A stretch of DNA of 64,000 nt from Deltaproteobacteria bacterium (GCA_020850995.1 JADZDP010000016.1:420-64419); one strand, 5' to 3'. Positions 3,600 to 55,674 are shown, counted from the stretch's first letter. Translations and numbers: made by a program. The notes: generated by a model not told the origin, from the sequence alone.

Positions 3600-3601
3600 G
3601 C

Positions 3602-6310: not shown

Positions 6311-6332
6311 CGGGTGGTCTTTTGCTGGGCCC

Positions 6333-8042
6333 TCAAAGGGAGCCGGTGACGGACACATCGGCCATGCCGTTGGTCGGCGTGGCCCGTACTTCGCCCCCGA
6401 GGGACGGCAAGGCTTGCGAGCCAAACAGGCGCGTGCGCACCGAGAGCCACGGCAGGATGGGCGCGTCCGCCCACACGCTCATGCCGAGCTCGCGATACCA
6501 ATCGCGAGGCGCCTCGCTCTCGTAGTAGGTGGCGCGGGTCGCGAAGCTCAGGAAGGGGAAGCGCAGGCGCGCCGACACCCACGCGTTGCGGCCGGGGATT
6601 CCGCCCGGCACCTCGACGTCGTTCTTGATCTTGGTGAGCCCGAACTCCTCGATGTAACCGAGCTGCATGCCGCCAGCGTCGCCGAACATGGTGGGCAGCT
6701 CGAGCTGCGGGCCCACGAAGGCGCGCGTGGAGTCCGATTGGGTGTTGTACGCGACGCTGCCGCTGGCGCCGAAGCCGAACCACGGCACCGGGCGGTAGGC
6801 GGTGAGCGCGCTCAGGTCGTGGCCGCCCTGGGCCCGCGGGATACTGGCGCCGTTGAAGTCGAGATCGAGGGGCGGTGCTGCGTTGTAGCGGTAGCCGGTC
6901 CACAGCGTGAGCTCGGGCACGACGCCGAGCCCGGCGTCGACGCTGGCGGCGTCGATGGAGGGCAGCATGTCGGCGGTGCCACCGATGCCGGTCTTGATGG
7001 AGCCGCCCACGTTGCCGACGCCGCGCCAGTACACCTGCGTCTGGGCCAGCGCCTCGCCACGCAGGTACTGGAAGTCGGGCGAGCTGATGACCCCCAGGCG
7101 CGCGCGCGGCACCACGGAGACGCCCTCCATGGGGCGCAGGTCGACGCCCACGTAGGCGCCGCCCGCCAGGCGATCGAGCGAGGGCGCGATGGTGATGAGG
7201 TCGGGGATGGCGCCAGCGTAGAGGCCGACCTCGGTGGTGTCGTCGAGGAAGCGCAGGCCGGCCTGCGCGCCGTCGAGCAGCAGCACGCCGGGCACGTTCT
7301 GGGCGTAGAAGCGACCGAGCTGGCCCACCACGAAGCCGTCGCGCATGCCCACCGACAGGCCCCAGACGTAGAGCTCGACGAGCTCGCCCGGGCGCGCGCG
7401 CTGGTTGTTGGGCGCGATCAGATCGCTGTTCACCCGGAACGAGGCGCTGGTGAAGAACTGCGGCGCGGCGCTGAAGCCCACGTCGAAGTAGCCGTCGACC
7501 GAGGTGCGCCCATAGGTGCCGTTCGGCGTGGTGGAGGCGTGCCACAGCTCTTGGCGCAGCGTGGTGCGGCCCTGGAGCGCGATGCCCGCGCTCGAGACGT
7601 CGTGCTTGACGCGCTCCACCGGGAGCTGCGCGAGCTGTTCGCGCAGCTCGCGCTCTTGGCCCGCGCTCATCATGGGCGGCAGCACCTTGGGCTCTGGCTT
7701 GGCCGCCTCGGGCGGCGGCGTGAACGCGAAGGTGAACTTGTCGCCCGGCGCGGCGCGATCGCTGCTGCACAGGGCCGCGGTGGGCGACACCTCCACCACC
7801 TGGCAGGGGCCCACCGGCTTGCTGCGCCGCGAGAGCTGCAATTCTTGGCCCACGGCGACGCCCTGCTTGGCGCCCACGTCGAGGTAGGCGGCCTTGGCCG
7901 TGGTGTACGTGACCTGGCCGTCGGTGGCGGCGGCCGTCAGGCTGACGATGGCGGAGAGCCCGACGACGCTGCTGAGCACCAAGAAACTCCGCGGACCAAG
8001 GGGTGGGTGGTCATGTTGCGACAGACCCCCCGTCCGGATCAA
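6333..8042 (-). CDS. Probable outer-membrane beta-barrel with a small N-terminal FlgT_C-like domain
   Basis: 569 aa, TTG start (exact start uncertain). Hydrophobic signal-like segment; YLDVGAKQGVAVGQELQLSR domain; alternating amphipathic strands up to the C-terminal ADVSVTGSL. Lies between cytochrome genes. Confidence 0.7.
   Translation of the reverse strand: MIRTGGLSQHDHPPLGPRSFLVLSSVVGLSAIVSLTAAATDGQVTYTTAKAAYLDVGAKQGVAVGQELQLSRRSKPVGPCQVVEVSPTAALCSSDRAAPGDKFTFAFTPPPEAAKPEPKVLPPMMSAGQERELREQLAQLPVERVKHDVSSAGIALQGRTTLRQELWHASTTPNGTYGRTSVDGYFDVGFSAAPQFFTSASFRVNSDLIAPNNQRARPGELVELYVWGLSVGMRDGFVVGQLGRFYAQNVPGVLLLDGAQAGLRFLDDTTEVGLYAGAIPDLITIAPSLDRLAGGAYVGVDLRPMEGVSVVPRARLGVISSPDFQYLRGEALAQTQVYWRGVGNVGGSIKTGIGGTADMLPSIDAASVDAGLGVVPELTLWTGYRYNAAPPLDLDFNGASIPRAQGGHDLSALTAYRPVPWFGFGASGSVAYNTQSDSTRAFVGPQLELPTMFGDAGGMQLGYIEEFGLTKIKNDVEVPGGIPGRNAWVSARLRFPFLSFATRATYYESEAPRDWYRELGMSVWADAPILPWLSVRTRLFGSQALPSLGGEVRATPTNGMADVSVTGSL

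Positions 8043-26518: not shown

Positions 26519-26525
<7 letters not shown>
25296..26525 (+). CDS. actF: Alternative complex III subunit F
   Basis: Multi-TM protein; WYSTIFG, HDLGKF, WFGNIPEET. Confidence 0.92.
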
Positions 26526-28999
<2,474 letters not shown>

Positions 29000-29106
29000 G
29001 CGGCCTCCGGTCTGCGGCCATCCGAACGGCGAGCATGCGACCCATGCCTGCAAGGCTTGGATTCCGGAGGGGCGCCGGGGTTGCTTCCATGGTCGGGGGC
29101 ACAGCT

Positions 29107-29230
29107 CCAAAACCGCCCTTGTGCTTCTGACGCCAAAAGCCGCCCAAGCTTGAGGGCCGCAGGGGATCGCGGCCCCCAGAAATCGGGGGAGGCCACGACG
29201 AGCCTTGGGGCTCCCCGGTCTGGGGGGAGC
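29107..29230. other. Intergenic cluster of GC hairpins plus a direct repeat (possible ncRNA, REP-like element or terminator)
   Basis: Stems at 29155-29174, 29173-29189 and 29210-29230; CCAAAA(G)CCGCCC at 29107 and 29133. Confidence 0.35.
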
Positions 29231-29288
29231 GCAACTGACGACGTCATGACCGACCCGGAGGGGGCACTTCCGAGCTCAGGGACACGAG

Positions 29289-36706: not shown

Positions 36707-37546
36707 TCACTTGATGGGGCTCAAGAGCTCGGGCTTGGTCACCAGCTCGCGCACGCCGTGCCCGTGCTTCTCTTGGTACTTGTTGGTGGCGCACCACTTG
36801 GCGAAGTCGTGGATGTTGAGCGGCGTGCACGTGGGGCGCACGCTCCAGCTCACCTGCAGCGGCGAGCAGTGCTTGTTGGAGAACTTCGGTCCTGTGGTGG
36901 AGCCCGTGTAGCGCACGGCGCCCTCGTCGCTGGTCACGGGCGCGCTGCCGTTGAAACGGACGGTGCCGTTCTCGGCCAACAGGAACACCTGCGCCTCCAC
37001 ACGCAGCTGCGGGTTCGCGCACGACTCGGTCATGCAGCCCTGCAGTCCGCCGCCGAGCGGCTTGACGCCCTTCGCCGTCAGATCGCAGGTCGTGTACACC
37101 CAGTGCGCCTCGATGGTGTCGCCGGGCGCGACGCCCGCGCAGCCCTCGTATACCTCGTGATCGTCGCGCGGCGCGTGGCGTGGCGGCGGTTGTTGGCAGG
37201 CCCAGCCGGAGTGCTCGCCGTCCTCGACGAAGATGGAGTAGGCCGACGCGCGGTGCTCGGCGAAGCGATGGAAGTGCACGTTACACAGGTGCATCTTGGC
37301 GAGCTCGGGCGTCTGGCTGAACAGCACCTTGTTGTTGCCCTCGTGCTTCGAGATGTCTCGCGGCGCTTGCGGGCCGGCGGCGACGCACTGGTTCATCGGC
37401 ACGGGAACATCGGCAGCTCCGTGGGGGGCGTCCTTGCTGCTTGTGGTGCCCTTGGTGTCCTTGCCATGCTTGGCGTCATCGGCGCTGGCGGTGCTAGCGC
37501 AGAAGGCAACGAGCAAAGCGGCGACGAGCGGGAGCGAGCGAGCCAT
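36707..37546 (-). CDS. Secreted delta-class carbonic anhydrase
   Basis: Signal peptide; GPQAPRDI, LCNVHFHRFAEH, GDTIEAHWV, NPQLRVEAQV, GSTTGP, QVSWSVRP, HGHGVRELV. Recognised from memory of the family. Confidence 0.8.
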   Translation of the reverse strand: MARSLPLVAALLVAFCASTASADDAKHGKDTKGTTSSKDAPHGAADVPVPMNQCVAAGPQAPRDISKHEGNNKVLFSQTPELAKMHLCNVHFHRFAEHRASAYSIFVEDGEHSGWACQQPPPRHAPRDDHEVYEGCAGVAPGDTIEAHWVYTTCDLTAKGVKPLGGGLQGCMTESCANPQLRVEAQVFLLAENGTVRFNGSAPVTSDEGAVRYTGSTTGPKFSNKHCSPLQVSWSVRPTCTPLNIHDFAKWCATNKYQEKHGHGVRELVTKPELLSPIK

Positions 37547-37687
37547 GGGGTCCTTCCTCGGGGCCGCGCGCACGCACGCGGTGGACGGCGCCGCATAGCA
37601 CCTTCTCCCGATGGTCTCGAGGGCTCCGAGCGCTCGTCGCAACCGGAGGCCCCTTCGCGCACCTCGGAATCGGCGCTAGCAGGGCGC

Positions 37688-38146
37688 GTGGCACTGACGG
37701 TGACGTACCAAGCGGAGCGAAACGCCGTGGGGCTCCTCGACGATCGGGTCCTGCTGTTCGCGCGCAGCGCGCGGCTGGCCCCGGCGGCGTTGGACGCGAT
37801 CGAGGCGCTCGCCGCGACGCACCGGCCACTGGCCAGCGCGGAGCGCCCCTTGGGTGCGCTGGCGCTCGTCGTCGGCGCCGCGGGTCTCTCGGAGAACAGC
37901 CTCCTCGAGCGCCAACGCGTGTTCTTGCGGGAGCTGCGCGCGGCGCCGCACGTGTGGTTCGCCTTCTGCATCGTTGGCGACGGCGTCCAGGCCGTCGCCA
38001 TGCGCGCCGTGGTCCGCGTGCTCATGCTCGGCAGCTCGGGCATGCGCATGTTCACCGACCAGGCGTCTGCCGCGCGCTGGCTCGGCGAGCGGGTCGGTGT
38101 AGATCCCGCGGCGATCACCGGTGCGCTCGACACGCTGATGCCGTGA
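37688..38146 (+). CDS. Small STAS/SEC14 (SpoIIAA-like) hypothetical protein
   Basis: GC3-rich frame; FAFCIVG..AVAMRAVVRVL...MFTDQASAARWL pattern. Start uncertain (37688 or 37700). Confidence 0.6.
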   Translation: MALTVTYQAERNAVGLLDDRVLLFARSARLAPAALDAIEALAATHRPLASAERPLGALALVVGAAGLSENSLLERQRVFLRELRAAPHVWFAFCIVGDGVQAVAMRAVVRVLMLGSSGMRMFTDQASAARWLGERVGVDPAAITGALDTLMP

Positions 38147-38181
38147 GGCTGCACCGCTCGTGGCTCGCCTGCGTCGAGGCG

Positions 38182-38607
38182 CTATGGGCTCGCCTGCACC
38201 ACCCCGTCCACCCACGCGACCAGGCGTCGATAGTCGAAGTCCGCGTCGTCGACGAACACCTCGACGTCGGCATGCCGCGACCGCGGCTTGACAACGAGCA
38301 GCGACTCGGCCGCATGTTCGATGTCGGCGGTGAACAGCGCGGCGCGCAGCAGGTTGAGGCGGAGCTCCTCGTCCGTCAGGGGCGTGTCGACGAAGGTGTC
38401 GTCGTCGCTCAAGCGATAGCGGTGCACCTCGAAGACCGCGAGCGGGCGTTCGCCGTTGCCATGGCAGCTCGCGTTGGCGCAGCGCGCGCCGAGCACAGGT
38501 TGTGCGAGATCGACGAAGGGCTCGAGCTCTGTCTCGGGCATCGCCTGCGTGGCGCTCAGGTCGACGCAGGCGGAGCAAAAAGCCAACGCGAGCACCACCA
38601 GTCTCAC
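38182..38607 (-). CDS. Small lipoprotein with a CX4CH putative heme motif
   Basis: MRLVVLALAFCSA-C; PFVDLAQPVLGARCANASCH; 4-nt overlap with the upstream gene. Confidence 0.8.
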   Translation of the reverse strand: MRLVVLALAFCSACVDLSATQAMPETELEPFVDLAQPVLGARCANASCHGNGERPLAVFEVHRYRLSDDDTFVDTPLTDEELRLNLLRAALFTADIEHAAESLLVVKPRSRHADVEVFVDDADFDYRRLVAWVDGVVQASP

Positions 38608-41510
38608 GGGGCCCCCGCCGCAGCGCTCGTGCCGACGAAGGTGGCGCCGAGCTCGATCCAGCGCACGAGCAGCACGAGCTCGTCGGGCCCAAGGGGCGCG
38701 GTGCCACCGTGCTCGCTGGGGTGCGCTTGGCCGGGGCGTGCCAGCGTTCCCGGCGCGTCGAGCTCGCGCCCGAGCAAGAGCTCCACGAGGTAGCTGGTGC
38801 GCGCCCGCCCCTCGGCGTCGTCGACGAAGTCGCGTCCGCCGCCGGAACGCGTTCCTGGCGTCAGCAAGCTCTGGTACGCGCGTGTGAAATGCGCGGTCTT
38901 CGCGCTCGAGAAATCGAGCGGTCCGCTGCTGTCGTGACAGGCGGCGCAGCGCGCCTCGAGGAGGGGCGCGACGTCGCGACTGAAGTCAACCTCCATGCGC
39001 GTGGCGTCGCCGACGAGGGGCGGCTCGATGGGACGCCGCGGGTTCTGCCGCTCGAAGCGCGCGAGCGACAAGGAGGCGCCCGTGATCGCGTCGGGGACCT
39101 CGTGCTCGGGGGCTACCGAGGCCCCCGATGGTTCCCCGTGGCACGCCGCGCAGCTCGCGCCGTAGCGCGCGGTGCCCGCGGCGGCCGAGATGCCCTGCGT
39201 GATCACCTGCCCCGGCTGCGCCGAGTACCAGCGGTTGTGCATGGTGCCGATGGCCATGCCCCCGTCGTCGAGCGCCTGCAGGCGGAAGGCCACGCCGGCG
39301 GGCACGCGGGCCTGGAAGCTGCCGTCGGCCTCCACTGGGAGCTCGCCGAGGATGCGCGCCGGACCGTGGACCCCGAGCGCCGTTGCCTGGCGCGCGCTCG
39401 GCGTCATCGGCAGGTGCTCGATCAGGCGCACGCGCGCGATCCCCGTGAGCGGCTCCTTGCTGCCCGAGGGTGCGAGGTTCGACAAGAGCGCGTCGATCAT
39501 CGGCATGCCTTGGTGGCGAAAGACCGCAGTGTCGTCGTCGATCGGCGCCAGCGCGGGCTCAGCGCGCACCGGGGCGCGCACCCAGAGGGGCTCGGGATCG
39601 CTGAGCGCCACACCCGGCTCGTCGAGCAGCACCACGCGCTCGGCGACGAAGGGTCCCGAGCCGTCGCGGGCCTCGTCGAGCGTGACCAGCTCGATGCGCG
39701 AAACGAAGGGCGCGGTGTCGTCGTTGACGTCGATGGGCGCCGGCACGTGGGCCACCAGCGCCCGGCCGTCCGCGAGCGGCGCCGGGTCGCGGAAGGCGCC
39801 CTCCTCGTCGACCACGACCAGGGGGCGGTCATAGCGCTCCAACGCCGGCGTGCTCGATGCCGAGCGCTCGTTGATCTCGGGGCCGAAGTTGCGATCCACC
39901 ACCACCAGGGCGCCAGCCTCGAAGCGCGAGCTCAGCGCTCCCTGAATGGCCAGGTAGCGCCCGTCGGGCAGCTCGCGCATGTCGTAGAGCAAGGTGGCCA
40001 CCGGCGTGACGCCGAAGTGCTGGTGGTACTCGGTGCCCAGGCTCGGCGGGAAGCGGAAGATGTGCGCGCGCGCCTGGCCCGGGAGGGCGTCACGCAGTGC
40101 GCTGAACGCGACTTCGCCGCCGGCCTCGCCGCCCACGTCGAAGAACACGGGCTTGCGCTCGAGGTGCGGCGTGTGTGTCCAGCGCCGCAACACGCTGGTG
40201 GCGAGGTCGATGGAGTAGAGATCCGCGTCGAGCAGGCCGCCCTGGTCTGCCACCACGCCCGCGCGCGTCGACACGAACCACGCGCTGCCGTCGGGGCCGA
40301 AGGTGGGATCGCGGTCGGTGGCGATGCCGCCGCCGGGCAGGGCGCCGTTGTCGAAGGTGAGCTGGCGGGCCTCGCGCGTGTCGAGCGCGAGCAGCCACAG
40401 GTGGTGTCCTTCGTCGGCCGAGCGGCGCATGGAGAAGAGCAGCTGCGTGCCGTCGCGTGACACGGCGGGATCGCGCAGGTCGGCGGGCCCCTCGGGGTGC
40501 AGCGGCGCCGTCAGGTTCTCGAGCGCGCTCGGTTGAAGCGATGCGTCGCCAACGGAAGCGAGCCACAGGTCGCTGCCCGGCGTGAAGGTCGCGAGGTCGA
40601 ACGGGTGCTGCGGCGCGATGGGGCCGCGCACGAACACGAAGCCGCTCACGAGCGGCGCGTCCTCCGCCGCGCAGTCGAGCCCGGTGCGCACGCGGCGCTC
40701 GGCGCAGGCCCAGCGCACGATGGCGCCGGCGCCCTCGCCCGGAGCGCCGCGATAGAAGTCGAAGTTGCCGCCCTTGTGCACGATGCCCGCGCCCAGCGGC
40801 AGCGACTTGCGCAGCACGCGCGACTGCCGCGGGTCACCGTCGAGCGCGAGGGCGCTGAGCGCCTCTTGGTAGTTGTGGCGCGTGGCCGCCGCCGAGAATA
40901 CGCCGCGGTAGCCGATGTCGAGTTGGAAGGGGATGGCGCCGGCCTCGGGCCCGTGGCAGCGCGCATTCATGCACGAGGCGCGCGCGAGCACCGGCTGCAC
41001 CGTGTCGGCGAACTGCTGCTCGAGCTCGCCGAGCGGCTTGGGATCTTCGCCGCCGCCGTCCTCGCGCTCGATCCACGCGCGCAGCGCCTGGAAGCTCGGG
41101 TCGTTCGGGCTCGCGAAGGTGGTGCCGCCATAGTGGCCCACGCCGCCCTGGTGCACCGAGAGCGGCTTGCGCAACAGCGACGACAGCTCCGGGTCCTCGA
41201 CGGTGTTGATGGTGCGCTTGGTGGCGTCGTAGGCCTGATCGAGCTCGACGAGGCGCCCGCGCTCGTCGAGCCGGAACAGCAGCTGGTCCCAATCGACGAC
41301 GTCACCCGCGGCCTCGGCGCCCGGCGCAACGCCGTGACAGGAGGCGGCGGCGCAGCTGCGCTCGAGGATGGGCACCACCGCGCGCTCGAAGAGCAGCCGG
41401 CCCGTGGGCTGGGCCGAGCAGCCAAGCGAGAGCGCGGCCAGCAGCGCGCCGGCGAGCGGCGCGCTCGCCGGCGCCCGTGGACCGCTCGGGGGGCCGGCGC
41501 TCGGGTTCAC
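38604..41510 (-). CDS. Large multiheme lipoprotein: CX4CH cytochrome domains + PD40/TolB-like propeller + hydrazine synthase alpha-like middle domain + CxxCH domains
   Basis: GTG 41510 overlaps the upstream TGA. Lipobox LSLG-C; CAAASCH, CMNARCH; DPAVSRDG, DPTFGPDG; GELPVEADGSFQARVPAGVAFRLQALD; two CAACH. Confidence 0.85.
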   Translation of the reverse strand: MNPSAGPPSGPRAPASAPLAGALLAALSLGCSAQPTGRLLFERAVVPILERSCAAASCHGVAPGAEAAGDVVDWDQLLFRLDERGRLVELDQAYDATKRTINTVEDPELSSLLRKPLSVHQGGVGHYGGTTFASPNDPSFQALRAWIEREDGGGEDPKPLGELEQQFADTVQPVLARASCMNARCHGPEAGAIPFQLDIGYRGVFSAAATRHNYQEALSALALDGDPRQSRVLRKSLPLGAGIVHKGGNFDFYRGAPGEGAGAIVRWACAERRVRTGLDCAAEDAPLVSGFVFVRGPIAPQHPFDLATFTPGSDLWLASVGDASLQPSALENLTAPLHPEGPADLRDPAVSRDGTQLLFSMRRSADEGHHLWLLALDTREARQLTFDNGALPGGGIATDRDPTFGPDGSAWFVSTRAGVVADQGGLLDADLYSIDLATSVLRRWTHTPHLERKPVFFDVGGEAGGEVAFSALRDALPGQARAHIFRFPPSLGTEYHQHFGVTPVATLLYDMRELPDGRYLAIQGALSSRFEAGALVVVDRNFGPEINERSASSTPALERYDRPLVVVDEEGAFRDPAPLADGRALVAHVPAPIDVNDDTAPFVSRIELVTLDEARDGSGPFVAERVVLLDEPGVALSDPEPLWVRAPVRAEPALAPIDDDTAVFRHQGMPMIDALLSNLAPSGSKEPLTGIARVRLIEHLPMTPSARQATALGVHGPARILGELPVEADGSFQARVPAGVAFRLQALDDGGMAIGTMHNRWYSAQPGQVITQGISAAAGTARYGASCAACHGEPSGASVAPEHEVPDAITGASLSLARFERQNPRRPIEPPLVGDATRMEVDFSRDVAPLLEARCAACHDSSGPLDFSSAKTAHFTRAYQSLLTPGTRSGGGRDFVDDAEGRARTSYLVELLLGRELDAPGTLARPGQAHPSEHGGTAPLGPDELVLLVRWIELGATFVGTSAAAGAP

Positions 41511-42835
41511 AGTGAGCGCAGGAAGGCGAGCAGCGCGGCGCGCTCGCTGGCCGGCAAGGTGCGGAAGGCCTCTTTGGCGCGCTCCGCCTCGCCGCCGTGC
41601 CACAAGATGGCCTCGGCGAGGTCGCGCGCGCGGCCGTCGTGCAGCAGGCCAGCGTAGGGGAGCACGGTCTGCGCCAAGCCAAGGCCCCACAGCGGTGCCG
41701 TGCGCCACTCCATCGCCGAGGCGAAGTAGTCGGTGCGGCCGTCGGCGAGGTCAAAGCCCACGTCGTGCAGCAGCAGGTCCGAGTAGGCGTGGATGCGCTG
41801 CTGCGCGAGCGCGTCGATCTCGTGCTCGCCGGTCTCGAGGGTCTCGACGTGGCAGGCGACGCAGCCCACATCGACGAACAGCGCTTCGCCCTGCTGCACA
41901 TCTGGATCCTCGAGGGCGGTACGCGCGGGTACCGCGAGGGTCTGCGTATAGAACGCGGCGCTGGTCAGGGTCTCGAGCGCGAGCTCGTAGCTGCCGTCCT
42001 CCTCGGGGAAGAGCGACGAGGTGACGCCCATGTCGTTGGCGTAGGCCGCGGCCGCCTGCTGCAAGAGCGTGGGCTCGCTGGCCTTCCACCCGAAGCGGCC
42101 TACGCGCGTCGTGCTCTCTGCGCGGTGCCACACCTCGTTGACGCGGCCGGAGATGCCGTCGCCGTCGCCGTCTTGGGGATCGGCGAGCTCGCGCAGCGCG
42201 TCGTCGGGCACCACCTCGAGGAGCCCGAGGCCGAATACGGGAGGAGGTATGCGTGCCGAGCTCAGCACCGCGGCCGACAAGGGCTCGCCGTTTGCCAGCG
42301 TGATGCTGATGCGCGGGCGGCGCAGCGTGTAGGGCTCGCCGTCGCCGTACCGGCCGCTCACCTCGTCGTACGCAAGCTCGACCTGAGCCTCTGGGGTCGC
42401 ACCGAAGATGGCGTGATCCTGGACCTGCAGGCCAAGGCCAGGGACGGGCACGGGGCCGCCGGGGACCACGGCCTTTCCGTCGGAGGCGCTGACACGTACC
42501 AGGAGCGGGCTGCCAAGGGGTCCTTGCCCCGCCACGGGCAGTCCGCGCCCGTCACGCACGTGGCAGCGATTGCACGCACTGTTGTTGAAGACGGGGCCGA
42601 GGCCAGGGTTGATGGTGGCGGGCGGCGACACGAAGACCGCCTCGAACGCCACGTCGCCCTCGAGGTGCAGGTCCAGCTCTTCGTCGCTCAGGTTCGGCGC
42701 CGGAAAGGAATAGGCGTTCGAGCTGCGATCGATCACCGTGGTGGCGCCACCGGCGAGCGGCAGCACGCCGGGTTCACCGATGCCGTCGAGGCACGCGGTG
42801 CAGCCGAGCACGAGGAGCAACGACGACGCACGCAT
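41507..42835 (-). CDS. Di-heme oxidoreductase family protein (DHOR/DUF1111)
   Basis: GLGPVFNNSACNRCH, FGLGLLE, GRFGWKA, CVACH, YSDLLLHD, WRTAPLWG, LLHDGRA. Confidence 0.93.
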   Translation of the reverse strand: MRASSLLLVLGCTACLDGIGEPGVLPLAGGATTVIDRSSNAYSFPAPNLSDEELDLHLEGDVAFEAVFVSPPATINPGLGPVFNNSACNRCHVRDGRGLPVAGQGPLGSPLLVRVSASDGKAVVPGGPVPVPGLGLQVQDHAIFGATPEAQVELAYDEVSGRYGDGEPYTLRRPRISITLANGEPLSAAVLSSARIPPPVFGLGLLEVVPDDALRELADPQDGDGDGISGRVNEVWHRAESTTRVGRFGWKASEPTLLQQAAAAYANDMGVTSSLFPEEDGSYELALETLTSAAFYTQTLAVPARTALEDPDVQQGEALFVDVGCVACHVETLETGEHEIDALAQQRIHAYSDLLLHDVGFDLADGRTDYFASAMEWRTAPLWGLGLAQTVLPYAGLLHDGRARDLAEAILWHGGEAERAKEAFRTLPASERAALLAFLRSL

Positions 42836-42856
42836 GGCAGTCCCAGGCGACGCCGG

Positions 42857-43933
42857 TCAGCGCAGCACGAGCGGTTGCAGCTCGCCCTCGAGGGTGGCCT
42901 GCAGCGCGCGCACGGCGAGCTGCGCGGCCTCGAGCTCGTCGTCGGCAGCGTCGTCGGTGATGGCGATGGAGAAGGGGGGCGGGATGGCCCCGATGGCGGT
43001 GATGGCCGCGGTGAGGCCGGACCGGACGCGCGCGTCGAGCGCTGCGTCTCGCTCGGCCACCCAGCTGCCGAGGCCGCGCCCCGCGGTGCCCGCGCTCGGC
43101 ACCGCGCCGGTGTAGACGTTCTCGACGCTGCGCAGGTTGTCTTGGAAGTCGGCGATGGAGTTGAGCGCAAACTGGCTCTCCACCAGGTCCGGATCGTGCT
43201 CGTCCCAGGGATCCGCGATCTTGCCGTTCGCCACCTCGTCGCAGATGCCCACCATGCCGTCGAGGAGCTCCTGCACCGCGGCGCTGAGCGAGGGGTAGGC
43301 GGTGTTGCCGTCCTCACCCGCGCCCGCCAGCAGATCGCGGTAGGGCGGGTTGCCGTCGACGCTGGTGGTCCAGCTGTTGGCGAGCGCGTTGGCCACGGCG
43401 GCGAGCTCGGCGGTGATGGCGGTGAGGTACTCGAGCTCGCGCGCCGTCAGCGCCGCCGCGGTCTTGCTGCGCGCGATGCCGAAGATCAGGTACTCGGCGG
43501 TGTGGAAGCCCTTTTGGTTCTCCTGCAAGTTGGCGATGAGCTCCGGGGTGAGCGCGGCGTCGGAGGCCAGCACGGCGTCGAGATCGGTGTGATTGACCGG
43601 CCAGCTATCGAGCGCAGGGTCGTAGCCGAAGCTGTTCACGGGCCCAAAGAGGAACCCCTCGCTCTGCTCCCAGGGCACGCGCGCGGCGATCCAGGCCCGC
43701 TGCGCCGCGGCAAGGGTGGCGTCGCTCGGCGCCTGTGCCAGCGCCTCGGCGCTCGTGTGCAAGGCGTCGACGCGCTCGGCCAGCAGCGCGTAGGTAGGAA
43801 CTACGACCTGGTCGGTGAAGTCGATGACGATCTGCGGATCGTCGAGCCCAGGGAGAACGTGCTCCTCTGGCACGCAGGCCGTGACCAGCGAGGTGGCGAG
43901 CGCGACGGCAGCAGCACCAGACAACGAACGCAT
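42857..43933 (-). CDS. Imelysin-like iron-regulated lipoprotein (IrpA/LruB-like)
   Basis: ATG 43933 with GGAGG upstream; lipobox VTA-C; WEQSEGFLFGP, DSWP, GFHTAE (GxHxxE), ES.F..NS..DF..N. Confidence 0.92.
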   Translation of the reverse strand: MRSLSGAAAVALATSLVTACVPEEHVLPGLDDPQIVIDFTDQVVVPTYALLAERVDALHTSAEALAQAPSDATLAAAQRAWIAARVPWEQSEGFLFGPVNSFGYDPALDSWPVNHTDLDAVLASDAALTPELIANLQENQKGFHTAEYLIFGIARSKTAAALTARELEYLTAITAELAAVANALANSWTTSVDGNPPYRDLLAGAGEDGNTAYPSLSAAVQELLDGMVGICDEVANGKIADPWDEHDPDLVESQFALNSIADFQDNLRSVENVYTGAVPSAGTAGRGLGSWVAERDAALDARVRSGLTAAITAIGAIPPPFSIAITDDAADDELEAAQLAVRALQATLEGELQPLVLR

Positions 43934-43944
43934 ACGGACCTCCA

Positions 43945-45444
43945 TCAATAAACGAAGCCGAGCGCCAGGCGCACGGTCTCCTCGCTGTTGAGCTCAGCCG
44001 AGCCGAAGCGGCGGTGGCTCGCGTCGAGCTTGAGCACCAGCGCGTTGCCGATGCTCCACGAGGCGCCAACGCCAACCACCAGGCGCTCGAAGCGCGGGTT
44101 GTCGAACAGGCCCTCACGCGGCAGGAACATGGCGTCGGCCCAGTCGATGCGGAGGAAGGGCTCGAGCGCATGGTCGCCCGGCAGCCCCACCCAGGGCGCC
44201 ACGTCGAGGCCAAGCTCGCCCCACGCCAGCAACGCCTGGTCGGACACTGGCGTGCGCGGCACTGCCAGGGCGTTCGACAGTCGCTCGTTGCGCGTCGACA
44301 CGGCGGCGGCGTTGGCCAGGTAACCCCACAGCACCATGGCGCTGCCCCGCACCGGCCCGAAACGCACGTTGCCGTGCGCATCCACGAGCGTGAGCGGCGC
44401 GTCCACGTAGCCGCAGGGCGCCACTACGTCGTCGGCACCGTCGGGGCAGTCCTTCACCAGGTCGGGCTTGGGACGGTTCCTGCTGGTGCCGCCGTAGTAG
44501 GCCGAAAGCCCAAGCTCGGTGTCGGGCATCGGAAAGGCGTCGAGGCGCCCAACCACGGCGAGGTCGGTGGCGCGCACCAGCTCGAAGCGCCGTTGGTGGC
44601 CCAGGGCGATGAAGCGCTGCGACGAGAACCCCGTCGAGTCGAGGCCGTTCACCACCTGCGCCGTGGCGCGCAGCCACGGCAGCCACGCCTGCAGTTGCAC
44701 GCCCATCTCGTCCCACACCGCGGGCAAAAGCAGGCTCTCGGCCTCGGAGCGCGTGGTGCCCAGGTAGTCGACGGGGCGGTAGTGGTGCGAGAGCTGGCCC
44801 ACGGCCACGTAGAAGCGCCCGGCGCTCACGGCCACGTGGCCGCCCAAGCGCTTGGTGAGGAAGAGCTCCTCGAGCAGTACCTCGCCGCCCTTCTCCCCCT
44901 CGAGTTCGAACTCGCCGAACTCCTCGTACTCGAGCTCCATGGCGGCGCCGGTGCCGCCGTGCTCGAGCTCGATCTCGGCCTCCGCCTCGACGTCGAAGGG
45001 CAGCTCGGCGATGAGCTCGAGCACGAAGCGCGTGGTGTCGAGCTCGAGGCGCAGGTCGCGCTGGGCGCCACCCTGGCGGTTCTGATCGGGTGCGAAGGCG
45101 AAGAACGCCCCCTGCAGCTCGCCGTAGCCCTGAAAGCGGAGCGTCGGGAGCGCGGGCGGAACAGGCGGCGGGGGGGGCAGGGCCGCGGGGGGCGCCGCCG
45201 CGGCCGCCGCTTGGTCCGCGAGCCGGCGCTCGAGGAGCTCGACGCGGCGCCGCAGCGCCTCGAGCTCCTCGCTCGCCGGCGTTGCCTCCGTGGAGGCTCG
45301 CTGCGTCGGCCCTACTTCAATCGGCGCAGTGGCGACCGCCTTATCGTGCTCGGGAGGGTCCTCGGCCGCGGCCCGTTGCGCCCACGGCAGCGCGAGCAGC
45401 AGCGCGAGCGCGCAGGGCAGGGCGGTGAAACCTCGGCGTCTCAT
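43945..45444 (-). CDS. Outer-membrane porin of imelysin-DHOR iron loci
   Basis: Signal peptide, coiled coil, EIELEHGG, GEVLLEE, amphipathic strands, C-terminal LGFVY. Confidence 0.85.
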   Translation of the reverse strand: MRRRGFTALPCALALLLALPWAQRAAAEDPPEHDKAVATAPIEVGPTQRASTEATPASEELEALRRRVELLERRLADQAAAAAAPPAALPPPPPVPPALPTLRFQGYGELQGAFFAFAPDQNRQGGAQRDLRLELDTTRFVLELIAELPFDVEAEAEIELEHGGTGAAMELEYEEFGEFELEGEKGGEVLLEELFLTKRLGGHVAVSAGRFYVAVGQLSHHYRPVDYLGTTRSEAESLLLPAVWDEMGVQLQAWLPWLRATAQVVNGLDSTGFSSQRFIALGHQRRFELVRATDLAVVGRLDAFPMPDTELGLSAYYGGTSRNRPKPDLVKDCPDGADDVVAPCGYVDAPLTLVDAHGNVRFGPVRGSAMVLWGYLANAAAVSTRNERLSNALAVPRTPVSDQALLAWGELGLDVAPWVGLPGDHALEPFLRIDWADAMFLPREGLFDNPRFERLVVGVGASWSIGNALVLKLDASHRRFGSAELNSEETVRLALGFVY

Positions 45445-45475
45445 CGGGGTCAGGGTGCAGATCGATGATGGAAAC

Positions 45476-45495
45476 AACAGTGATAACCATTATCA
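45476..45495. promoter_or_regulatory. Fur box
   Basis: TGATAAC-C-ATTATCA (45481-45495) matches the 7-1-7 consensus at 13/14 positions; 45476-45494 matches GATAATGATAATCATTATC at 15/19. AT-rich island upstream of iron-type genes. Confidence 0.85.
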
Positions 45496-45516
45496 TAATC
45501 GCGACTATCGTGTCAA
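45489..45516 (-). promoter_or_regulatory. Sigma70-type promoter overlapping the Fur box
   Basis: Minus strand TTGACA (45516-45511), 16-nt spacer, GATAAT (45494-45489). Confidence 0.7.
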
Positions 45517-45655
45517 GAGCGAAGGACGCCATCAGCAGACATGGCGGTCCAGGGCGAAGATCGGCGCGCGGCGACGCAGCAAGGGCGCGCGAAGGGCAAT
45601 GGTACGGTGCGGCAGGGACCGCAGCGCGGGTCGGCGGGCTCATGGCGCGCCGGCG

Positions 45656-49138
<3,483 letters not shown>

Positions 49139-53759: not shown

Positions 53760-55553
53760 TCAGGGCGCTCCCGGGGGCGTCGTCAGCGCCGCCTCGCGCG
53801 CTTGCAGGCGCGTGTCGTTGGGGAACTGCTTGCGGGCGCTCGCCAGCGCGATGCGCGCTCGCTCGGGCTCCATGCGCGCGAGCAGCACGTCGGCCAACAA
53901 GAGCGCTACGTCGGCGTCATCGGGCTTGGCGGCGCGGGCCTCGGCGGCGGCCGCGAGCGCGACGTCGAGATCGCCGGTGCCGTCGTAGGCGAAGGCCTCG
54001 AGCTCGAGCTGCGCGCGCGCCACTGGCACGCGCCCCTCCCAGCCGCGCTCGTTTGCCATGGCCTCGCGCGCAGCGTCGAAGGCACGGCGCGCTGCCAGCA
54101 GGTCGCCGGCCGCCTGGTGCGCGAGCGCGAGATCGAGCTGCGCCTTCACCGAGGTCGGGCGGTTGAGTGCGGCGTTGGCGGCGTCGCGCTGAGTCTTGCG
54201 CTCGACCAGGCGCACGCGCGCGCGCACCTCCTCGAGCAGCTCCTTGGAGCGGGCGGTGGCGCTGGTGCGGTGCGCCAGCACGAAGGCGCACTCGGTGTCG
54301 CCGCGCACGAACACCCACGCGCGCGCCTCGAAGGGCCCGTCGGAGGCAATGAACGAGAACGCCACGCGGCGCGCCGGCACGGTGCCGGGCGCCGTGCCGA
54401 CGACGTCGGACAGGGGGGCGCCCACGGTGAGGTTGCTGATATGGCCGGCGCGGGCCAGGCTGGTCAGCTCACGGTCGACGAACCCCGCGGCGGCGTCGTC
54501 GAGGCGCACGCGCCGCGCGCCGCGATCGCAGGCGATGGAGGCGAGCGCGTCGACGCCGTTGCCAAAGGCGATGAAGCCGAGCGGGTCGGGCCCCTTGGTC
54601 CAGGTCGAGGGGCGCTCGATGACGATGCCGAAGGAGTCGAGGCGGTAGGGGCGGAACGACAGCAACAGCCTCGGCAGCAAGGGCCCCAGCGCGACCAGCG
54701 CGACCACAACAACGGTGCACGCGATCCACGGTCGCATGGCCACGGCGCGGGGCTCGGTGGCGTCGCGCAGGCGCATGAGGCGCGGCACCAGCACGCCCCC
54801 CATGACGAGCCCGGCGAGCAGCCCGCCGCCGTGGCCCCAGTTGTCGGTCGTGGCCCGCTGCAAACCCAGGTAGAACATGGTGGCCGCGTAGCCCACCACG
54901 ACGACGCCGAAGTAGATGCGGTAGCGCGTGGGCAAGAGATCGGAGAAGCGCAGGCCAAACACCACGCCCGCGCCCAAGCACGCGAAGACCATGCCCGACG
55001 CGCCCACGGTCACGGGCCCCGACGCGAAGGTCGACACCACCATCGTCGAGACGCCGCCCACGACGAGCAGGAGCAGGTAGTCGCCCCGCCGATACACGCC
55101 CTCGAGCACGGCGCCGATGTTGAGCAACGCGAACAGGTTGAAGGCCAGGTGCGTGACGTCGCGGTGCAAGAGGTTGGCAACGAGCAGCCGCCAGAGCTCA
55201 CCTTCGTCGACGATGCGCGCGCGCGCCTTGGCGCCGAGCTCGAGCAAGGCCTCGCGCGTCACCACGCCGTCGCCGCTGTGGCGCGCCCACAGGAAGAGCG
55301 CGATGCACACGAGCGCGACCACCCCCGTGAGCACGGGATAACGGCCGAGGTGGAAGTGCCGCCGGAACAGGATGCGGCGAGGATCGTAGAGCGCCGCGAA
55401 CAAGGGAAGCTCGCGCGCCTGCACGAAGCGCTCGCCGGTCAGCGCGGGAATGCACACGTCGGCGAAGGGCGACAGCTCCCCGCGGCGGGCGCGCCGCTCG
55501 AATTCGTCGATGGTCAGGATCGACTCCTGATCGCCCTCGCGGATCCGGATCAC
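53760..55553 (-). CDS. Rhomboid intramembrane serine protease with N-terminal GYF-like and C-terminal TPR-like domains
   Basis: ELWRLL, HLAFN, GASG (catalytic Ser), NWGHGGG (catalytic His); helical repeats at the C-terminus. Confidence 0.9.
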   Translation of the reverse strand: MIRIREGDQESILTIDEFERRARRGELSPFADVCIPALTGERFVQARELPLFAALYDPRRILFRRHFHLGRYPVLTGVVALVCIALFLWARHSGDGVVTREALLELGAKARARIVDEGELWRLLVANLLHRDVTHLAFNLFALLNIGAVLEGVYRRGDYLLLLVVGGVSTMVVSTFASGPVTVGASGMVFACLGAGVVFGLRFSDLLPTRYRIYFGVVVVGYAATMFYLGLQRATTDNWGHGGGLLAGLVMGGVLVPRLMRLRDATEPRAVAMRPWIACTVVVVALVALGPLLPRLLLSFRPYRLDSFGIVIERPSTWTKGPDPLGFIAFGNGVDALASIACDRGARRVRLDDAAAGFVDRELTSLARAGHISNLTVGAPLSDVVGTAPGTVPARRVAFSFIASDGPFEARAWVFVRGDTECAFVLAHRTSATARSKELLEEVRARVRLVERKTQRDAANAALNRPTSVKAQLDLALAHQAAGDLLAARRAFDAAREAMANERGWEGRVPVARAQLELEAFAYDGTGDLDVALAAAAEARAAKPDDADVALLLADVLLARMEPERARIALASARKQFPNDTRLQAREAALTTPPGAP

Positions 55554-55674
55554 CAGGTCGACCTTAGGGGCCGCGAATGACTACGTCGATGCCCCCGCGG
55601 CCGACGTGCACATTCGCGGCCCTTTCGAGGGCCCTTACCTTTCCGCACGGCGCGGCGGGTGCTACCGACAGCCA

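What the first reader, a model, noticed from the sequence alone, without database searches (positions are those of the whole stretch)
38182..45516. Fur-controlled porin-imelysin-DHOR iron locus extended by an HzsA-like multiheme lipoprotein and a CX4CH lipoprotein
Seen: five co-oriented, translationally coupled genes (GTGA and 4-nt overlaps) behind a near-perfect Fur box and TTGACA promoter. Known: porin + imelysin + di-heme DHOR cassettes are linked to iron limitation (IrpAB/LruB-like), but their mechanism is unresolved. Known: HzsA-like middle-domain/propeller proteins outside anammox bacteria have no assigned function. I know of no described system joining the two. Inference: a redox-driven iron or other metal acquisition machine in which a 968-aa propeller with 4 putative hemes and a small heme partner mobilise or change the oxidation state of iron before imelysin capture. 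This would give a first physiological context for an HzsA-like protein.
Basis: partly seen in the sequence, partly recalled or inferred. Interest (0 to 1): 0.82.

Follow-up and report, generated by a model that had tools for sequence, protein, structure and literature searches.

The report
Iron-regulated imelysin operon with HzsA-like cytochrome
An uncultured sludge myxobacterium has a five-gene, apparently iron-repressed operon in which a known but poorly understood iron-uptake cassette (porin, imelysin, di-heme DHOR) has picked up a distant relative of the anammox hydrazine-synthase alpha subunit and a small cytochrome-like partner, which places that orphan protein family in an iron-starvation setting.

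Summary
On the minus strand, 38182-45516 holds one promoter (TTGACA-16-GATAAT) overlapped by a Fur-like box (3/19 mismatches; 0 of 100 shuffles match). It is followed by five tightly packed genes:
- a 16-strand porin
- an imelysin lipoprotein (GxHxxE motif)
- a di-heme DHOR
- a 968-aa lipoprotein ("BIG") whose best structural match is hydrazine synthase alpha (HzsA), with four invariant putative heme motifs
- a 141-aa CX4CH lipoprotein

The interpretation needs revising. In 133 related loci, BIG and the small protein form a fixed pair in Myxococcota. Their usual neighbours are a fused HzsB/HzsC-like propeller plus di-heme protein, flavinylated DUF3570 and ApbE, with no Fur box. Only one nested clade (about 20 loci, including the window) sits in the Fur-boxed porin-imelysin-DHOR cassette. 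DHOR and the HzsBC-like protein never co-occur.

My reading is that DHOR replaced the gamma-like di-heme partner of an HZS-like alpha subunit in a single evolutionary event. This put a seven-heme, outer-membrane-associated redox complex under iron-starvation control. The chemistry is inferred, not shown; Fe(II) oxidation feeding imelysin is my favoured guess.

It is a new variant of known kinds, known only from uncultured genomes. Interest is moderate to high.

The parts
45482..45516 (-). Promoter TTGACA (45516..45511), 16-nt spacer, GATAAT (45494..45489), overlapped by the Fur-like box GATTATGATAATGGTTATC (45482..45500)
   Evidence: It is the only 11/12 promoter match in 37600-45800. The box is the only match with 3 or fewer mismatches in 64 kb, and 0 of 100 shuffles give one. 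Fur-like boxes lie upstream of the orthologous operons in 10 genome loci and 2 metagenome loci.
43945..45444 (-). Outer-membrane 16-strand porin (499 aa). It has a Sec signal peptide, an N-terminal coiled-coil helix, a C-terminal ...GFVY, and an invariant acidic ladder E155/E157/E159/E161-H162 (nt 44959..44982).
   Evidence: No Pfam hit. Homologs are named OprO/OprP-family porin, and some carry PF07396 or PF13609. The AF2 model has pLDDT 75. Foldseek best matches are Omp-Pst1, OprB, OprP and OprO, E about 1e-12, TM 0.5-0.66.
42857..43933 (-). Imelysin (Peptidase_M75) lipoprotein with lipobox LVTAC and the GxHxxE motif GFHTAE (nt 43493..43510)
   Evidence: Pfam PF09375, 226 bits. PDB 3n8u at 7.5e-40 and 4ecg 'iron-regulated protein A' at 1e-30. 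Motif located.
41507..42835 (-). DHOR di-heme oxidoreductase lipoprotein (lipobox LVLGC). Heme motifs CNRCH (42560..42574) and CVACH (41849..41863).
   Evidence: Pfam PF06537, 333 bits. It is 60% identical to the DHOR of a stand-alone porin-imelysin-DHOR cassette. Its C-terminal half aligns to the C-terminus of the HzsBC-like proteins (hhalign probability 97%, E 1.7e-11).
38604..41510 (-). HzsA-like tetra-heme lipoprotein (968 aa). Parts: lipobox Cys31; two N-terminal CX4CH domains (41334..41354 and 40953..40973); beta-propeller (about 39531..40658); HZS_alpha middle domain (39204..39359); CAACH (39138..39152); flavinylation-like DAITGAS (39072..39092); C-terminal heme domain with CAACH (38934..38948).
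   Evidence: Foldseek best match is 5c2v_A (E 1.7e-27, TM 0.60 over 854 columns). The profile against 5c2v_A gives E 6.8e-29 in four collinear stretches. All four heme motifs are invariant in 30 homologs.
38182..38607 (-). Small CX4CH lipoprotein (141 aa; CANASCH at 38461..38481). It is a paralog of the N-terminal domains of the large protein and its obligate downstream partner in Myxococcota.
   Evidence: GC3 of 0.87 supports coding. BLASTP to BIG residues 151-187 gives E 6e-5. A homolog lies directly downstream of BIG in about 46 of 47 Myxococcota-type genome loci, and the alignment shows the conserved CxxxxCHG and KPL motifs.

Best explanation
What it is. This is a five-gene, Fur-family-repressed operon that encodes an outer-membrane-associated redox machine. 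It has two parts.
- One part is the widespread porin-imelysin-DHOR cassette, which exists on its own in other Myxococcota.
- The other is a two-gene module: an HzsA-like tetra-heme lipoprotein and its mono-heme paralog partner. Elsewhere this module works with a fused HzsB/HzsC-like propeller plus di-heme protein, flavinylated DUF3570 and ApbE.

What changed. In this lineage the HzsBC-like partner was lost, and the cassette's own di-heme DHOR, whose stop codon overlaps the large protein's start codon, takes the gamma-like role.

Proposed working (inferred).
- Under iron starvation the repressor leaves the box that overlaps the -10.
- Fe(II) or another cationic iron species enters through the acidic-ladder porin.
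- The four lipoproteins form a seven-heme chain in which the HzsA-like protein and the small cytochrome exchange electrons with DHOR.
- DHOR turns over peroxide or O2 at its peroxidatic heme.
- The net result is controlled oxidation of Fe(II) to Fe(III), which imelysin captures at its GxHxxE site. This is analogous to EfeB plus EfeO.

Shown versus inferred.
- Shown: gene content, family relationships, promoter/box geometry, conservation of linkage and boxes, mutual exclusivity of DHOR and the HzsBC-like protein, and a single origin of the arrangement.
- Inferred: Fur binding, heme attachment at CX4CH, a DHOR-BIG complex, the direction of electron flow, and iron as the substrate.
For: - The anatomy and domains are confirmed.
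- The Fur-like box is unique in 64 kb. Fur-like boxes recur upstream of the first gene of orthologous operons in L002-L007, L011, L019, L031 and L034, and in L065 and L066. In the HzsBC-type loci none lies at the gene cluster, apart from the ambiguous L086 case listed under evidence against.
- In L011 a box with one mismatch directly precedes DHOR-BIG-small, with no porin or imelysin.
- BIG is accompanied by DHOR in 13 genome and 5 metagenome loci, or by the HzsBC-like protein in 37 and about 44 loci, and never by both.
- DHOR-associated BIGs form one clade nested among HzsBC-associated ones.
- The HzsBC-like protein matches HzsB (7e-7) and HzsC (4e-4) and the NCBIfam hydrazine beta, gamma and BC models. 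Its C-terminus aligns to DHOR's second-heme half, including the LHDGRA motif.
- BIG is a full-length structural homolog of HzsA.
- The porin fold and its invariant glutamate ladder fit a cation channel.
- Imelysin/M75 proteins bind Fe2+ and Fe3+ and are linked to peroxidases in Fur-regulated operons (PMC3143127, PMC9174327).
Against: - There is no experimental datum for this locus. Metatranscriptome contigs cover the operon and its flanks alike, so they show neither co-transcription nor induction.
- The operon and the 64-kb window contain no inner-membrane permease and no electron conduit: there is no EfeU/FTR1, DUF3570 or ApbE.
- Building seven hemes under iron starvation is costly.
- Most of the BIG family has no Fur box and sits with flavinylation and RnfD-like electron-supply genes. 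That points to a reductase, not an oxidase.
- Fur and PerR boxes look alike.
- L012 has BIG+small with neither partner within 10 kb.
- L007 and L064 show porin-imelysin-BIG with no DHOR before the contig ends.
- One locus outside the DHOR clade (L086, contig ends after DUF3570) has a Fur-like box (4 mismatches) in a divergent intergenic region about 230 nt upstream of BIG, so the split between boxed and box-free loci is not perfectly clean.
- The DHOR-BIG interaction is inferred only from gene order.
Confidence: 0.4

Rival explanations
1. Reductive iron mobilisation. The lipoprotein cytochromes and the porin act like a porin-cytochrome conduit. They reduce Fe(III) minerals or ferric chelates at or near the outer membrane, and the released Fe(II) is passed on by imelysin. 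The HzsA-like/DHOR pair would be a reductase, as the flavinylation and RnfD-like context of its relatives suggests.
For: - Relatives of BIG are clustered with ApbE, flavinylated DUF3570 or an RnfD-like Fe-S fusion, and small multiheme proteins. These are electron-supply components.
- PMC8238504 links flavinylation clusters to iron reduction and assimilation.
- Eight DHOR-type genome loci, plus L065, L066 and L081, still carry DUF3570 right after the small gene, and several also carry ApbE.
- All four soluble proteins are lipoproteins encoded next to a porin.
Against: - The window has no DUF3570, ApbE or any membrane electron donor within 64 kb.
- Imelysin/M75 partners are peroxidase-type enzymes tied to ferroxidation models (PMC9174327).
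- A 16-strand porin is too narrow to hold a cytochrome the way MtrB does.
Confidence: 0.2
2. Peroxide or oxidative-stress defence. The box is a PerR-type site, and the operon is a periplasmic peroxidase system (DHOR with cytochrome electron donors). Imelysin and the porin would be accessory. The link to iron would be only indirect, through avoidance of Fenton chemistry.
For: - DHOR belongs to the di-heme cytochrome c peroxidase superfamily.
- By established knowledge, bacterial CCPs take electrons from small c-type cytochromes.
- Leptospira imelysin and CCP genes respond to peroxide and PerR (titles and abstracts of PMC7567364 and PMC8638851).
- By established knowledge, Fur-family boxes are similar to one another.
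Against: - The box matches the Fur consensus at 16 of 19 positions, and at 17-18 of 19 in L019 and L011.
- Imelysin operons in Pseudomonas and Vibrio are Fur-regulated (PMC3143127).
- A cation-type porin and a metal-binding imelysin have no obvious role in pure peroxide removal.
Confidence: 0.15
3. Passenger module. BIG+small is functionally independent of the iron cassette, for example acting on a small nitrogen-oxide-type or other substrate as HZS-like complexes may. It would merely have landed downstream of a Fur promoter.
For: - The pair is a mobile unit found in different contexts.
- L012 has it alone.
- Homology to HzsA is collinear over the whole length.
Against: - The arrangement is retained across a whole clade whose BIG orthologs are down to 53% identical to the window's.
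- Start and stop codons overlap at the DHOR/BIG junction.
- The arrangement survives gene-order changes that keep DHOR next to BIG (L005, L009, L011, L019, L068).
- The usual di-heme partner is lost exactly where DHOR is present.
- HZS catalytic residues are absent: there is no Tyr four residues after the heme alpha-I His (PMC12758564).
Confidence: 0.15

Closest known systems
Fur-regulated imelysin/di-heme-peroxidase outer-membrane cassettes (P. aeruginosa PA4370-PA4373 ICMP operon, V. cholerae VC1264-1266, cyanobacterial IrpA, Leptospira LruB; PMC3143127)
   Same: - Imelysin lipoprotein with GxHxxE.
- Adjacent DHOR (DUF1111) di-heme protein.
- Fur-type box at the promoter.
- No EfeU-type permease in the operon.
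   Different: - A dedicated 16-strand porin comes first.
- There is no second (IPPA-type) imelysin.
- An HzsA-like tetra-heme lipoprotein and a CX4CH lipoprotein are appended and translationally coupled to DHOR.
Stand-alone porin-imelysin-DHOR cassette of Myxococcota (e.g. L061; homologs in Myxococcus, Corallococcus, Stigmatella)
   Same: The same three genes in the same order. The porin is 54-61% identical in cultured myxobacteria and DHOR is 60% identical in L061, with an AT-rich Fur-like stretch upstream.
   Different: It ends after DHOR. No BIG homolog was seen from any cultured myxobacterium among the hits.
Non-anammox hydrazine-synthase-like gene pairs (HzsA homolog + fused HzsBC homolog; clades I-IV of Hagglund et al. 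2025, PMC12758564)
   Same: - The large protein has the propeller, HZS_alpha middle domain and C-terminal heme domain architecture.
- It has a canonical rather than Tyr-ligated heme alpha-I site.
- Its relatives in Myxococcota and Planctomycetota sit next to a fused propeller plus di-heme (HzsBC-like) gene, and FG-GAP genes occur in some loci.
   Different: - In the window the HzsBC-like gene is absent and a DHOR stands in its place.
- There is an extra N-terminal pair of CX4CH domains and a separate CX4CH partner.
- It is a lipoprotein.
- It has a Fur-box promoter.
- The paper does not mention Myxococcota.
Anammox hydrazine synthase HzsABC (PDB 5c2v)
   Same: It is the best fold match (E 1.7e-27, TM 0.60) and the only sequence-level PDB relative over the whole length.
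   Different: - 16-17% identity.
- The NCBIfam equivalog score is 57 against a cut-off of 800.
- The catalytic Tyr/Zn site is not conserved.
- There are no beta or gamma subunits.
- The organism is a high-GC myxobacterium from activated sludge, not an anammox planctomycete.
EfeUOB/M ferrous-iron uptake (EfeO M75 domain + EfeB peroxidase + EfeU permease)
   Same: The logic of a metal-binding M75 protein working with a heme peroxidase under iron limitation.
   Different: - No EfeU.
- The peroxidase is a di-heme c-type DHOR, not a DyP.
- The imelysin matches the EfeO equivalog only weakly (26 bits against a cut-off of 270).
- The components are outer-membrane or lipoprotein located.
ApbE/DUF3570 flavinylation-associated extracytosolic electron-transfer clusters (Meheust et al. 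2021, PMC8238504)
   Same: Most relatives of the BIG+small pair are flanked by DUF3570 (with [S/T]GA[S/T] motifs) and ApbE.
   Different: The published DUF3570 clusters pair it with DsbD, thioredoxin-like proteins and DUF4266, not with HzsA/HzsBC-like cytochromes. The window itself has lost DUF3570 and ApbE.

Membership tests
Hydrazine synthase alpha subunit (HzsA) | Beta-propeller + HZS_alpha middle domain + C-terminal c-type heme domain, collinear | tested here: met
   PF18582 scores 40.4 bits against a gathering score of 26.6. The profile against 5c2v_A gives E 6.8e-29 in four collinear stretches. Foldseek gives E 1.7e-27 and TM 0.60.
Hydrazine synthase alpha subunit (HzsA) | Score above the NCBIfam equivalog cut-off (functional equivalence) | tested here: not met
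   NF052339 scores 57.5 bits against a cut-off of 800, and only on the C-terminal domain.
Hydrazine synthase alpha subunit (HzsA) | Non-canonical heme alpha-I site (Tyr four residues after the CxxCH His; Zn site) | tested here: not met
   The motif is CAACHGEPSG, and no Tyr occurs at His+4 in any of 50 homologs. PMC12758564 reports the same for non-anammox homologs.
Hydrazine synthase alpha subunit (HzsA) | Encoded with HzsB and HzsC (or fused HzsBC) | tested here: not met
   There is no HzsBC-like gene in the 64-kb window, although one is present in 37 of 60 genome loci of relatives.
Fur-regulated imelysin-DHOR cassette | Imelysin (Peptidase_M75) with GxHxxE and a lipoprotein signal | tested here: met
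   PF09375 scores 226 bits. GFHTAE lies at residues 147-152 and the lipobox is LVTAC.
Fur-regulated imelysin-DHOR cassette | Adjacent DHOR/DUF1111 di-heme protein with two CxxCH | tested here: met
   PF06537 scores 333 bits. The motifs are CNRCH and CVACH.
Fur-regulated imelysin-DHOR cassette | Fur binding site at the promoter | tested here: met
   At sequence level only. The box matches 16 of 19 positions and overlaps the -10. Fur-like boxes are conserved in 12 related loci. Fur binding and iron response are not testable here.
Fur-regulated imelysin-DHOR cassette | Induction under iron limitation | not testable with these tools
   Only unstranded, low-depth metatranscriptome contigs are available, and they cover the flanks equally.
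EfeUOB | EfeU/FTR1 permease and DyP-type EfeB in the operon | tested here: not met
   No such gene is present in the operon or among the neighbours scanned. The EfeO equivalog scores 26 bits against a cut-off of 270.
OprO/OprP-like 16-strand porins | Signal peptide, 16-strand beta-barrel, C-terminal aromatic residue | tested here: met
   The AF2 model is all beta-hairpins. Foldseek matches OprP (2o4v), OprO (4rjw), OprB and OmpF-type porins at about 1e-12. The protein ends in ...GFVY. The Pfam Porin_O_P model itself is not matched by this sequence, only by some homologs.
ApbE flavinylation substrates | [S/T]GA[S/T] site and a cognate ApbE gene | tested here: inconclusive
   BIG carries D807-AIT-GAS813, column-conserved as D-x-x-[TS]-x-[AS]-[ST]. 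The Gly is not conserved across the family, other substrates (DUF3570, the RnfD-like protein) explain ApbE in relatives, and the window has no ApbE.
c-type cytochromes (CX4CH variant) | Covalent heme at CxxxxCH | not testable with these tools
   The motifs are invariant. The only family-level support is a sub-threshold hit to TIGR01904, the 'CxxxxCH/CxxCH domain c-type cytochrome' model.

The most novel reading that the evidence does not exclude
The hydrazine-synthase architecture may be one specialised offshoot of a broader family of periplasmic alpha/gamma heme enzymes whose gamma-type di-heme partner is exchangeable. On this reading the Myxococcota clade paired the alpha-like subunit with the DHOR of an iron-uptake cassette, creating an iron-starvation-induced two-site heme enzyme that processes iron or an iron ligand. 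The alpha-like subunit may additionally carry a covalently bound flavin at the conserved DxxTGAS loop next to its catalytic heme. That would give a function both to imelysin/DHOR cassettes and to non-anammox HzsA-like proteins.
Probability: 0.2. Interest if true: 0.85.

Novelty: new variant of a known kind. Interest (0 to 1): 0.62.

Why it matters
Two widespread systems lack a mechanism. One is the Fur-regulated imelysin/DHOR cassette, present in many pathogens and environmental bacteria. The other is the set of HzsA/HzsBC-like heme proteins outside anammox bacteria, whose existence bears on how hydrazine synthase evolved.

This locus fuses the two under an iron-type promoter, in a clade where DHOR and the HzsBC-like partner are mutually exclusive. 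That leads to three concrete tests:
- Does DHOR bind the HzsA-like protein?
- Is the operon derepressed by iron limitation?
- Which iron redox reaction does the complex catalyse?

The locus also suggests that the di-heme partner of HZS-like alpha subunits is modular. The main limitation is that every carrier is an uncultured MAG, so the work would need heterologous expression.

Tried and rejected
- **Metatranscriptomes.** I used runs X25-X28 to test co-transcription. The contigs are short, unstranded and at depth 3-5. They cover the convergent downstream gene and the upstream kinase equally, and some cross the promoter. The result is uninformative and may reflect DNA carry-over.
- **Pfam and NCBIfam on the porin, the small protein and the N-terminal 170 aa of BIG.** No hits even at E 10. 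I settled the porin with a structure model instead.
- **Context look-ups for cultured Myxococcus porin homologs.** P0185 and P0154 were not on record. P0182 worked.
- **Is the 955-aa gene near BIG in L012 a divergent HzsBC-like protein?** No, it looks like an M16-type peptidase by sequence.
- **Is BIG the ApbE substrate in planctomycete loci?** Rejected as the simplest reading, because a neighbouring RnfD-like protein carries the strict DxxTGAS motif there.
- **Fur-like box in L086.** It lies upstream of BIG in a locus outside the DHOR clade, but in a divergent intergenic region next to an unidentified gene. This is ambiguous.
- **True hydrazine synthase or anammox function.** Rejected on the equivalog score, the missing catalytic residues, the missing beta/gamma subunits and the organism type.
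- **DHOR against solved structures by sequence.** No match.

Full report
**1. Observation**

The window is about 70% G+C, so raw ORF lists are crowded with spurious frames. A third-position GC filter leaves five consecutive minus-strand genes between 38182 and 45444:
- a 499-aa protein, 43945..45444
- imelysin, 42857..43948 as an ORF
- DHOR, 41507..42835
- a 968-aa protein I call BIG, 38604..41510
- a 141-aa protein, 38182..38607

Upstream on the same strand lies a Ser/Thr kinase with TPR repeats, ending at 45656. Downstream, a convergent plus-strand gene ends at 38146. The unit is therefore well bounded.

The junctions were read directly:
- DHOR/BIG and BIG/small are GTGA start/stop overlaps.
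- Imelysin/DHOR has a 21-nt gap.
- Imelysin most likely starts at the ATG at 43933, behind a GGAGG and about 10 nt after the porin stop.

The 210-nt upstream spacer holds TTGACA-16-GATAAT (45516..45489). This is the only 11/12 sigma-70-type match in 37600-45800. It also holds GATTATGATAATGGTTATC (45482..45500), which differs from the 19-bp Fur consensus at 3 positions and overlaps the -10. It is the only such match in 64 kb, and 0 of 100 dinucleotide shuffles produce one.

**2. The five proteins**

Imelysin scores 226 bits on Peptidase_M75. It carries the GxHxxE motif (GFHTAE) and a lipobox. It matches solved imelysin and IrpA structures.

DHOR scores 333 bits on PF06537, with two CxxCH motifs and a lipobox.

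The first gene has no Pfam or NCBIfam hit.
- It has 760 homologs, some named OprO/OprP-family porin and some carrying PF07396 or PF13609.
- An AF2 model (pLDDT 75) is an all-hairpin barrel. Its best PDB matches are 16-strand porins, including OprP and OprO (E about 1e-12, TM 0.5-0.66).
- Thirty homologs share invariant E155, E157, E159, E161 and H162 on one strand, plus E175, E178, E192 and E193.
- I read this as a lumen-facing acidic ladder, the opposite of OprP's arginine ladder, which would suit cations. That is an inference.

BIG has a lipobox Cys31 and four motifs that are invariant in 30 homologs down to 47% identity: C53x4CH, C180x4CH, C787xxCH and C855xxCH.
- Pfam finds HZS_alpha (40.4 bits, gathering score 26.6) and a cytochrome c motif.
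- NCBIfam finds hydrazine_alpha at 57 bits, far below its cut-off of 800.
- A family profile hits only HzsA (5c2v_A) in the PDB with a significant whole-length match (E 6.8e-29, four collinear stretches).
- The AF2 model (pLDDT 82, pTM 0.84) has HzsA as its best structural match by 14 orders of magnitude over TolB (E 1.7e-27, TM 0.60 on the target).
- BIG is therefore an HzsA-like propeller / middle-domain / heme-domain protein with an extra 270-residue N-terminal region that holds two CX4CH domains.

The small protein is a lipoprotein with one CX4CH. It is a paralog of those N-terminal domains.

Heme attachment is not shown for any of these proteins.

**3. Related loci**

I ran two independent scans with the BIG profile:
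- one genome per GTDB species: 60 loci
- JGI and other metagenome contigs: 73 loci

I annotated both by tblastn and by clustering of flanking ORFs. The results are as follows.

(a) In Myxococcota-type loci the small gene follows BIG almost without exception. In planctomycete loci (about 30% identity) it is absent.

(b) The commonest context is BIG, small, c2, c4, c1, c3, with c3 sometimes also upstream.
- c2 is DUF3570. It scores 69-84 bits and has [S/T]GA[S/T] motifs in 32 of 37 members. It is an experimentally shown ApbE flavinylation substrate (PMC8238504).
- c3 is ApbE (287 bits).
- c1 is a lipoprotein of 800-1000 aa with a YVTN/lactonase-type propeller and a di-heme C-terminus. It hits HzsB (7e-7) and HzsC (4e-4) in the PDB and the NCBIfam hydrazine beta, gamma and BC models, all far below cut-off.
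- Planctomycete loci add an RnfD/NqrB-like membrane protein fused to Fe-S domains (with DxxTGAS), a small multi-CxxCH protein and, in some loci, FG-GAP proteins.
- This matches and extends the published observation that non-anammox HzsA homologs co-localise with fused HzsBC homologs of unknown function (PMC12758564). That paper does not mention Myxococcota.

(c) Only 13 genome loci and 5 metagenome loci have DHOR next to BIG. Most of these also have the porin and imelysin upstream. Three more loci (L007, L064 and L001) are cut by contig ends.

(d) DHOR and the HzsBC-like protein never co-occur in any of the 133 loci. With full 10-kb flanks, only L012 has neither.

(e) In a neighbour-joining tree the DHOR-associated BIGs form one clade, which includes the window, nested within HzsBC-associated ones. 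This indicates a single partner switch.

(f) Rearranged loci keep DHOR beside BIG:
- L011 has DHOR-BIG-small only.
- L005 has DHOR-BIG-small plus a second, divergent porin-imelysin-DHOR.
- L009, L019 and L068 have BIG followed by DHOR.

(g) The three-gene porin-imelysin-DHOR cassette exists without BIG in other Myxococcota (L061; DHOR 60% identical). Porin homologs occur in cultured Myxococcus, Corallococcus and Stigmatella. All listed BIG homologs come from MAGs or metagenomes.

(h) The window contains no DUF3570, ApbE, c4 or HzsBC-like gene. Eight DHOR-type genome loci still have DUF3570 after the small gene, and several have ApbE. The window therefore represents a further reduced state.

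**4. Regulation**

I scanned 1.08 Mb of genome loci for the Fur consensus at 6 or fewer mismatches.
- Hits fall immediately upstream of the first operon gene in L002, L003, L004, L005, L006, L007, L019 (2 mismatches), L031 and L034, and upstream of DHOR in L011 (1 mismatch).
- No hit lies next to the BIG cluster in the HzsBC-type loci; a few weak matches occur elsewhere in them.
- The metagenome set repeats this pattern in L065 and L066. It also has one ambiguous box in L086, in a divergent spacer about 230 nt from BIG.

The iron-type control therefore belongs to the imelysin/DHOR cassette and was imposed on BIG+small when they joined it.

Sludge metatranscriptomes contain fragments of the region, but at the same low depth as the flanks and without strand information. 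They prove nothing about co-transcription or induction.

**5. Mechanism**

The firmest inference is architectural. An HzsA-like alpha-type subunit normally partners a gamma-type di-heme CCP-like module. In this clade that module is the DHOR of an iron cassette. Two results support this:
- profile-profile alignment of DHOR's second-heme half with the C-terminus of the HzsBC-like proteins, including the LHDGRA...HGG...L(x)FL(x)(x)L tail (probability 97%, E 1.7e-11)
- the strict mutual exclusivity of the two partners

For chemistry, I favour Fe(II) oxidation coupled to peroxide or O2 reduction.
- Imelysin/M75 proteins are tied to peroxidases and to ferroxidation-type uptake, and they bind Fe2+ and Fe3+ (PMC3143127, PMC9174327).
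- By established knowledge, CCP-type enzymes take electrons from c-type cytochromes.
- The porin looks cation-selective.

The main rival is reductive mobilisation of Fe(III). The electron-supply genes (ApbE, DUF3570, RnfD-like) around BIG's relatives suggest it. Other possibilities are peroxide defence under a PerR-type regulator and a passenger module. None can be excluded in silico.

Three points weigh against any iron-uptake reading:
- the operon has no inner-membrane transporter
- the window has no electron conduit
- seven hemes are costly under iron starvation

**6. Comparison and novelty**

The locus is a member of the Fur-box imelysin/DHOR cassette kind at sequence level.

BIG is a remote structural homolog of HzsA but not a hydrazine synthase:
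- the equivalog score is not met
- the catalytic Tyr/Zn site is absent
- there are no beta or gamma subunits

No paper in the searched library joins imelysin with hydrazine-synthase-like proteins. DUF3570 has not been reported with HzsA/HzsBC-like genes.

The BIG family is modest in size: 190 clusters at 50% identity with E of 1e-30 or better, out of 1.84 billion representatives.

I rate this as a new variant of known kinds. It is interesting mainly because it gives a regulated context and a defined candidate partner for two orphan protein families.

**7. Verdict**

- Observation: confirmed.
- Interpretation: partly supported. It should be reframed as a partner switch (DHOR for HzsBC-like) rather than a simple extension.
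- Organism: an uncultured Myxococcota bacterium recurrent in activated-sludge and wastewater metagenomes.

Noticed in passing
window 39072..39092 (-), BIG residues 807-813: DAITGAS matches the ApbE flavinylation consensus ([S/T]GA[S/T] with Asp three residues before). It lies 16 residues after the CAACH heme motif, in a low-confidence loop. The column pattern D-x-x-[TS]-x-[AS]-[ST] is kept in about 48 of 50 homologs. The strict TGAS/SGAS form occurs mostly in the DHOR-associated clade. This is a possible covalent FMN site, but it is untested and the window has no ApbE.
   Followed up: partly
window 44959..44982 (-), porin residues 155-162 (also E175, E178, E192, E193): There is an invariant alternating Glu ladder, E-x-E-x-E-x-E-H, on one predicted barrel strand. 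It is conserved in 30 homologs down to 52% identity and suggests a cation-selective channel.
   Followed up: partly
L048-L055 (planctomycete loci), about 6-9 kb downstream of the BIG homolog: HzsA-like and HzsBC-like genes are followed by ApbE, an RnfD/NqrB-like membrane protein fused to 2Fe-2S/4Fe-4S or NuoF-like domains (with DxxTGAS), and a small TM-anchored multi-CxxCH protein. This looks like a complete route for electrons from the cytoplasm to the HZS-like pair.
   Followed up: partly
L010-L047 and L067-L124, between DUF3570 and the HzsBC-like gene: A conserved lipoprotein of about 200 aa (cluster c4) with no Pfam match is present in 15 genome loci and many metagenome loci.
   Followed up: no
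L086 3570..3600: A Fur-like box (4 mismatches) lies in a divergent intergenic region about 230 nt upstream of a BIG homolog that is not in an imelysin cassette. The divergent gene has no Pfam hit.
   Followed up: partly
window 36707..37642 (-): There is a delta-class carbonic-anhydrase-like (CA_like, 146 bits) gene. A 152-aa plus-strand ORF with no family match (37690..38146) lies between it and the operon, converging on the operon's end with only a 35-bp gap and no terminator-like hairpin.
   Followed up: no
window 45656..49138 (-): A 1160-aa Ser/Thr protein kinase with a long AAA/TPR-like C-terminal region ends 210 nt upstream of the operon promoter, on the same strand. One metatranscriptome contig spans its end and the promoter region.
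   Followed up: no
window 978..4010 and 3602..6478 (-): Two long coding-like frames on the same strand overlap by about 400 nt. This may be a frameshift, a sequencing error, or mis-called boundaries in a very large gene.
   Followed up: no
window 26519..29275 (-); window 53760..55580 (-): There is a hybrid PAS/GAF histidine kinase with a receiver domain, and a rhomboid protease fused to TPR repeats. Neither has an evident link to the operon.
   Followed up: no
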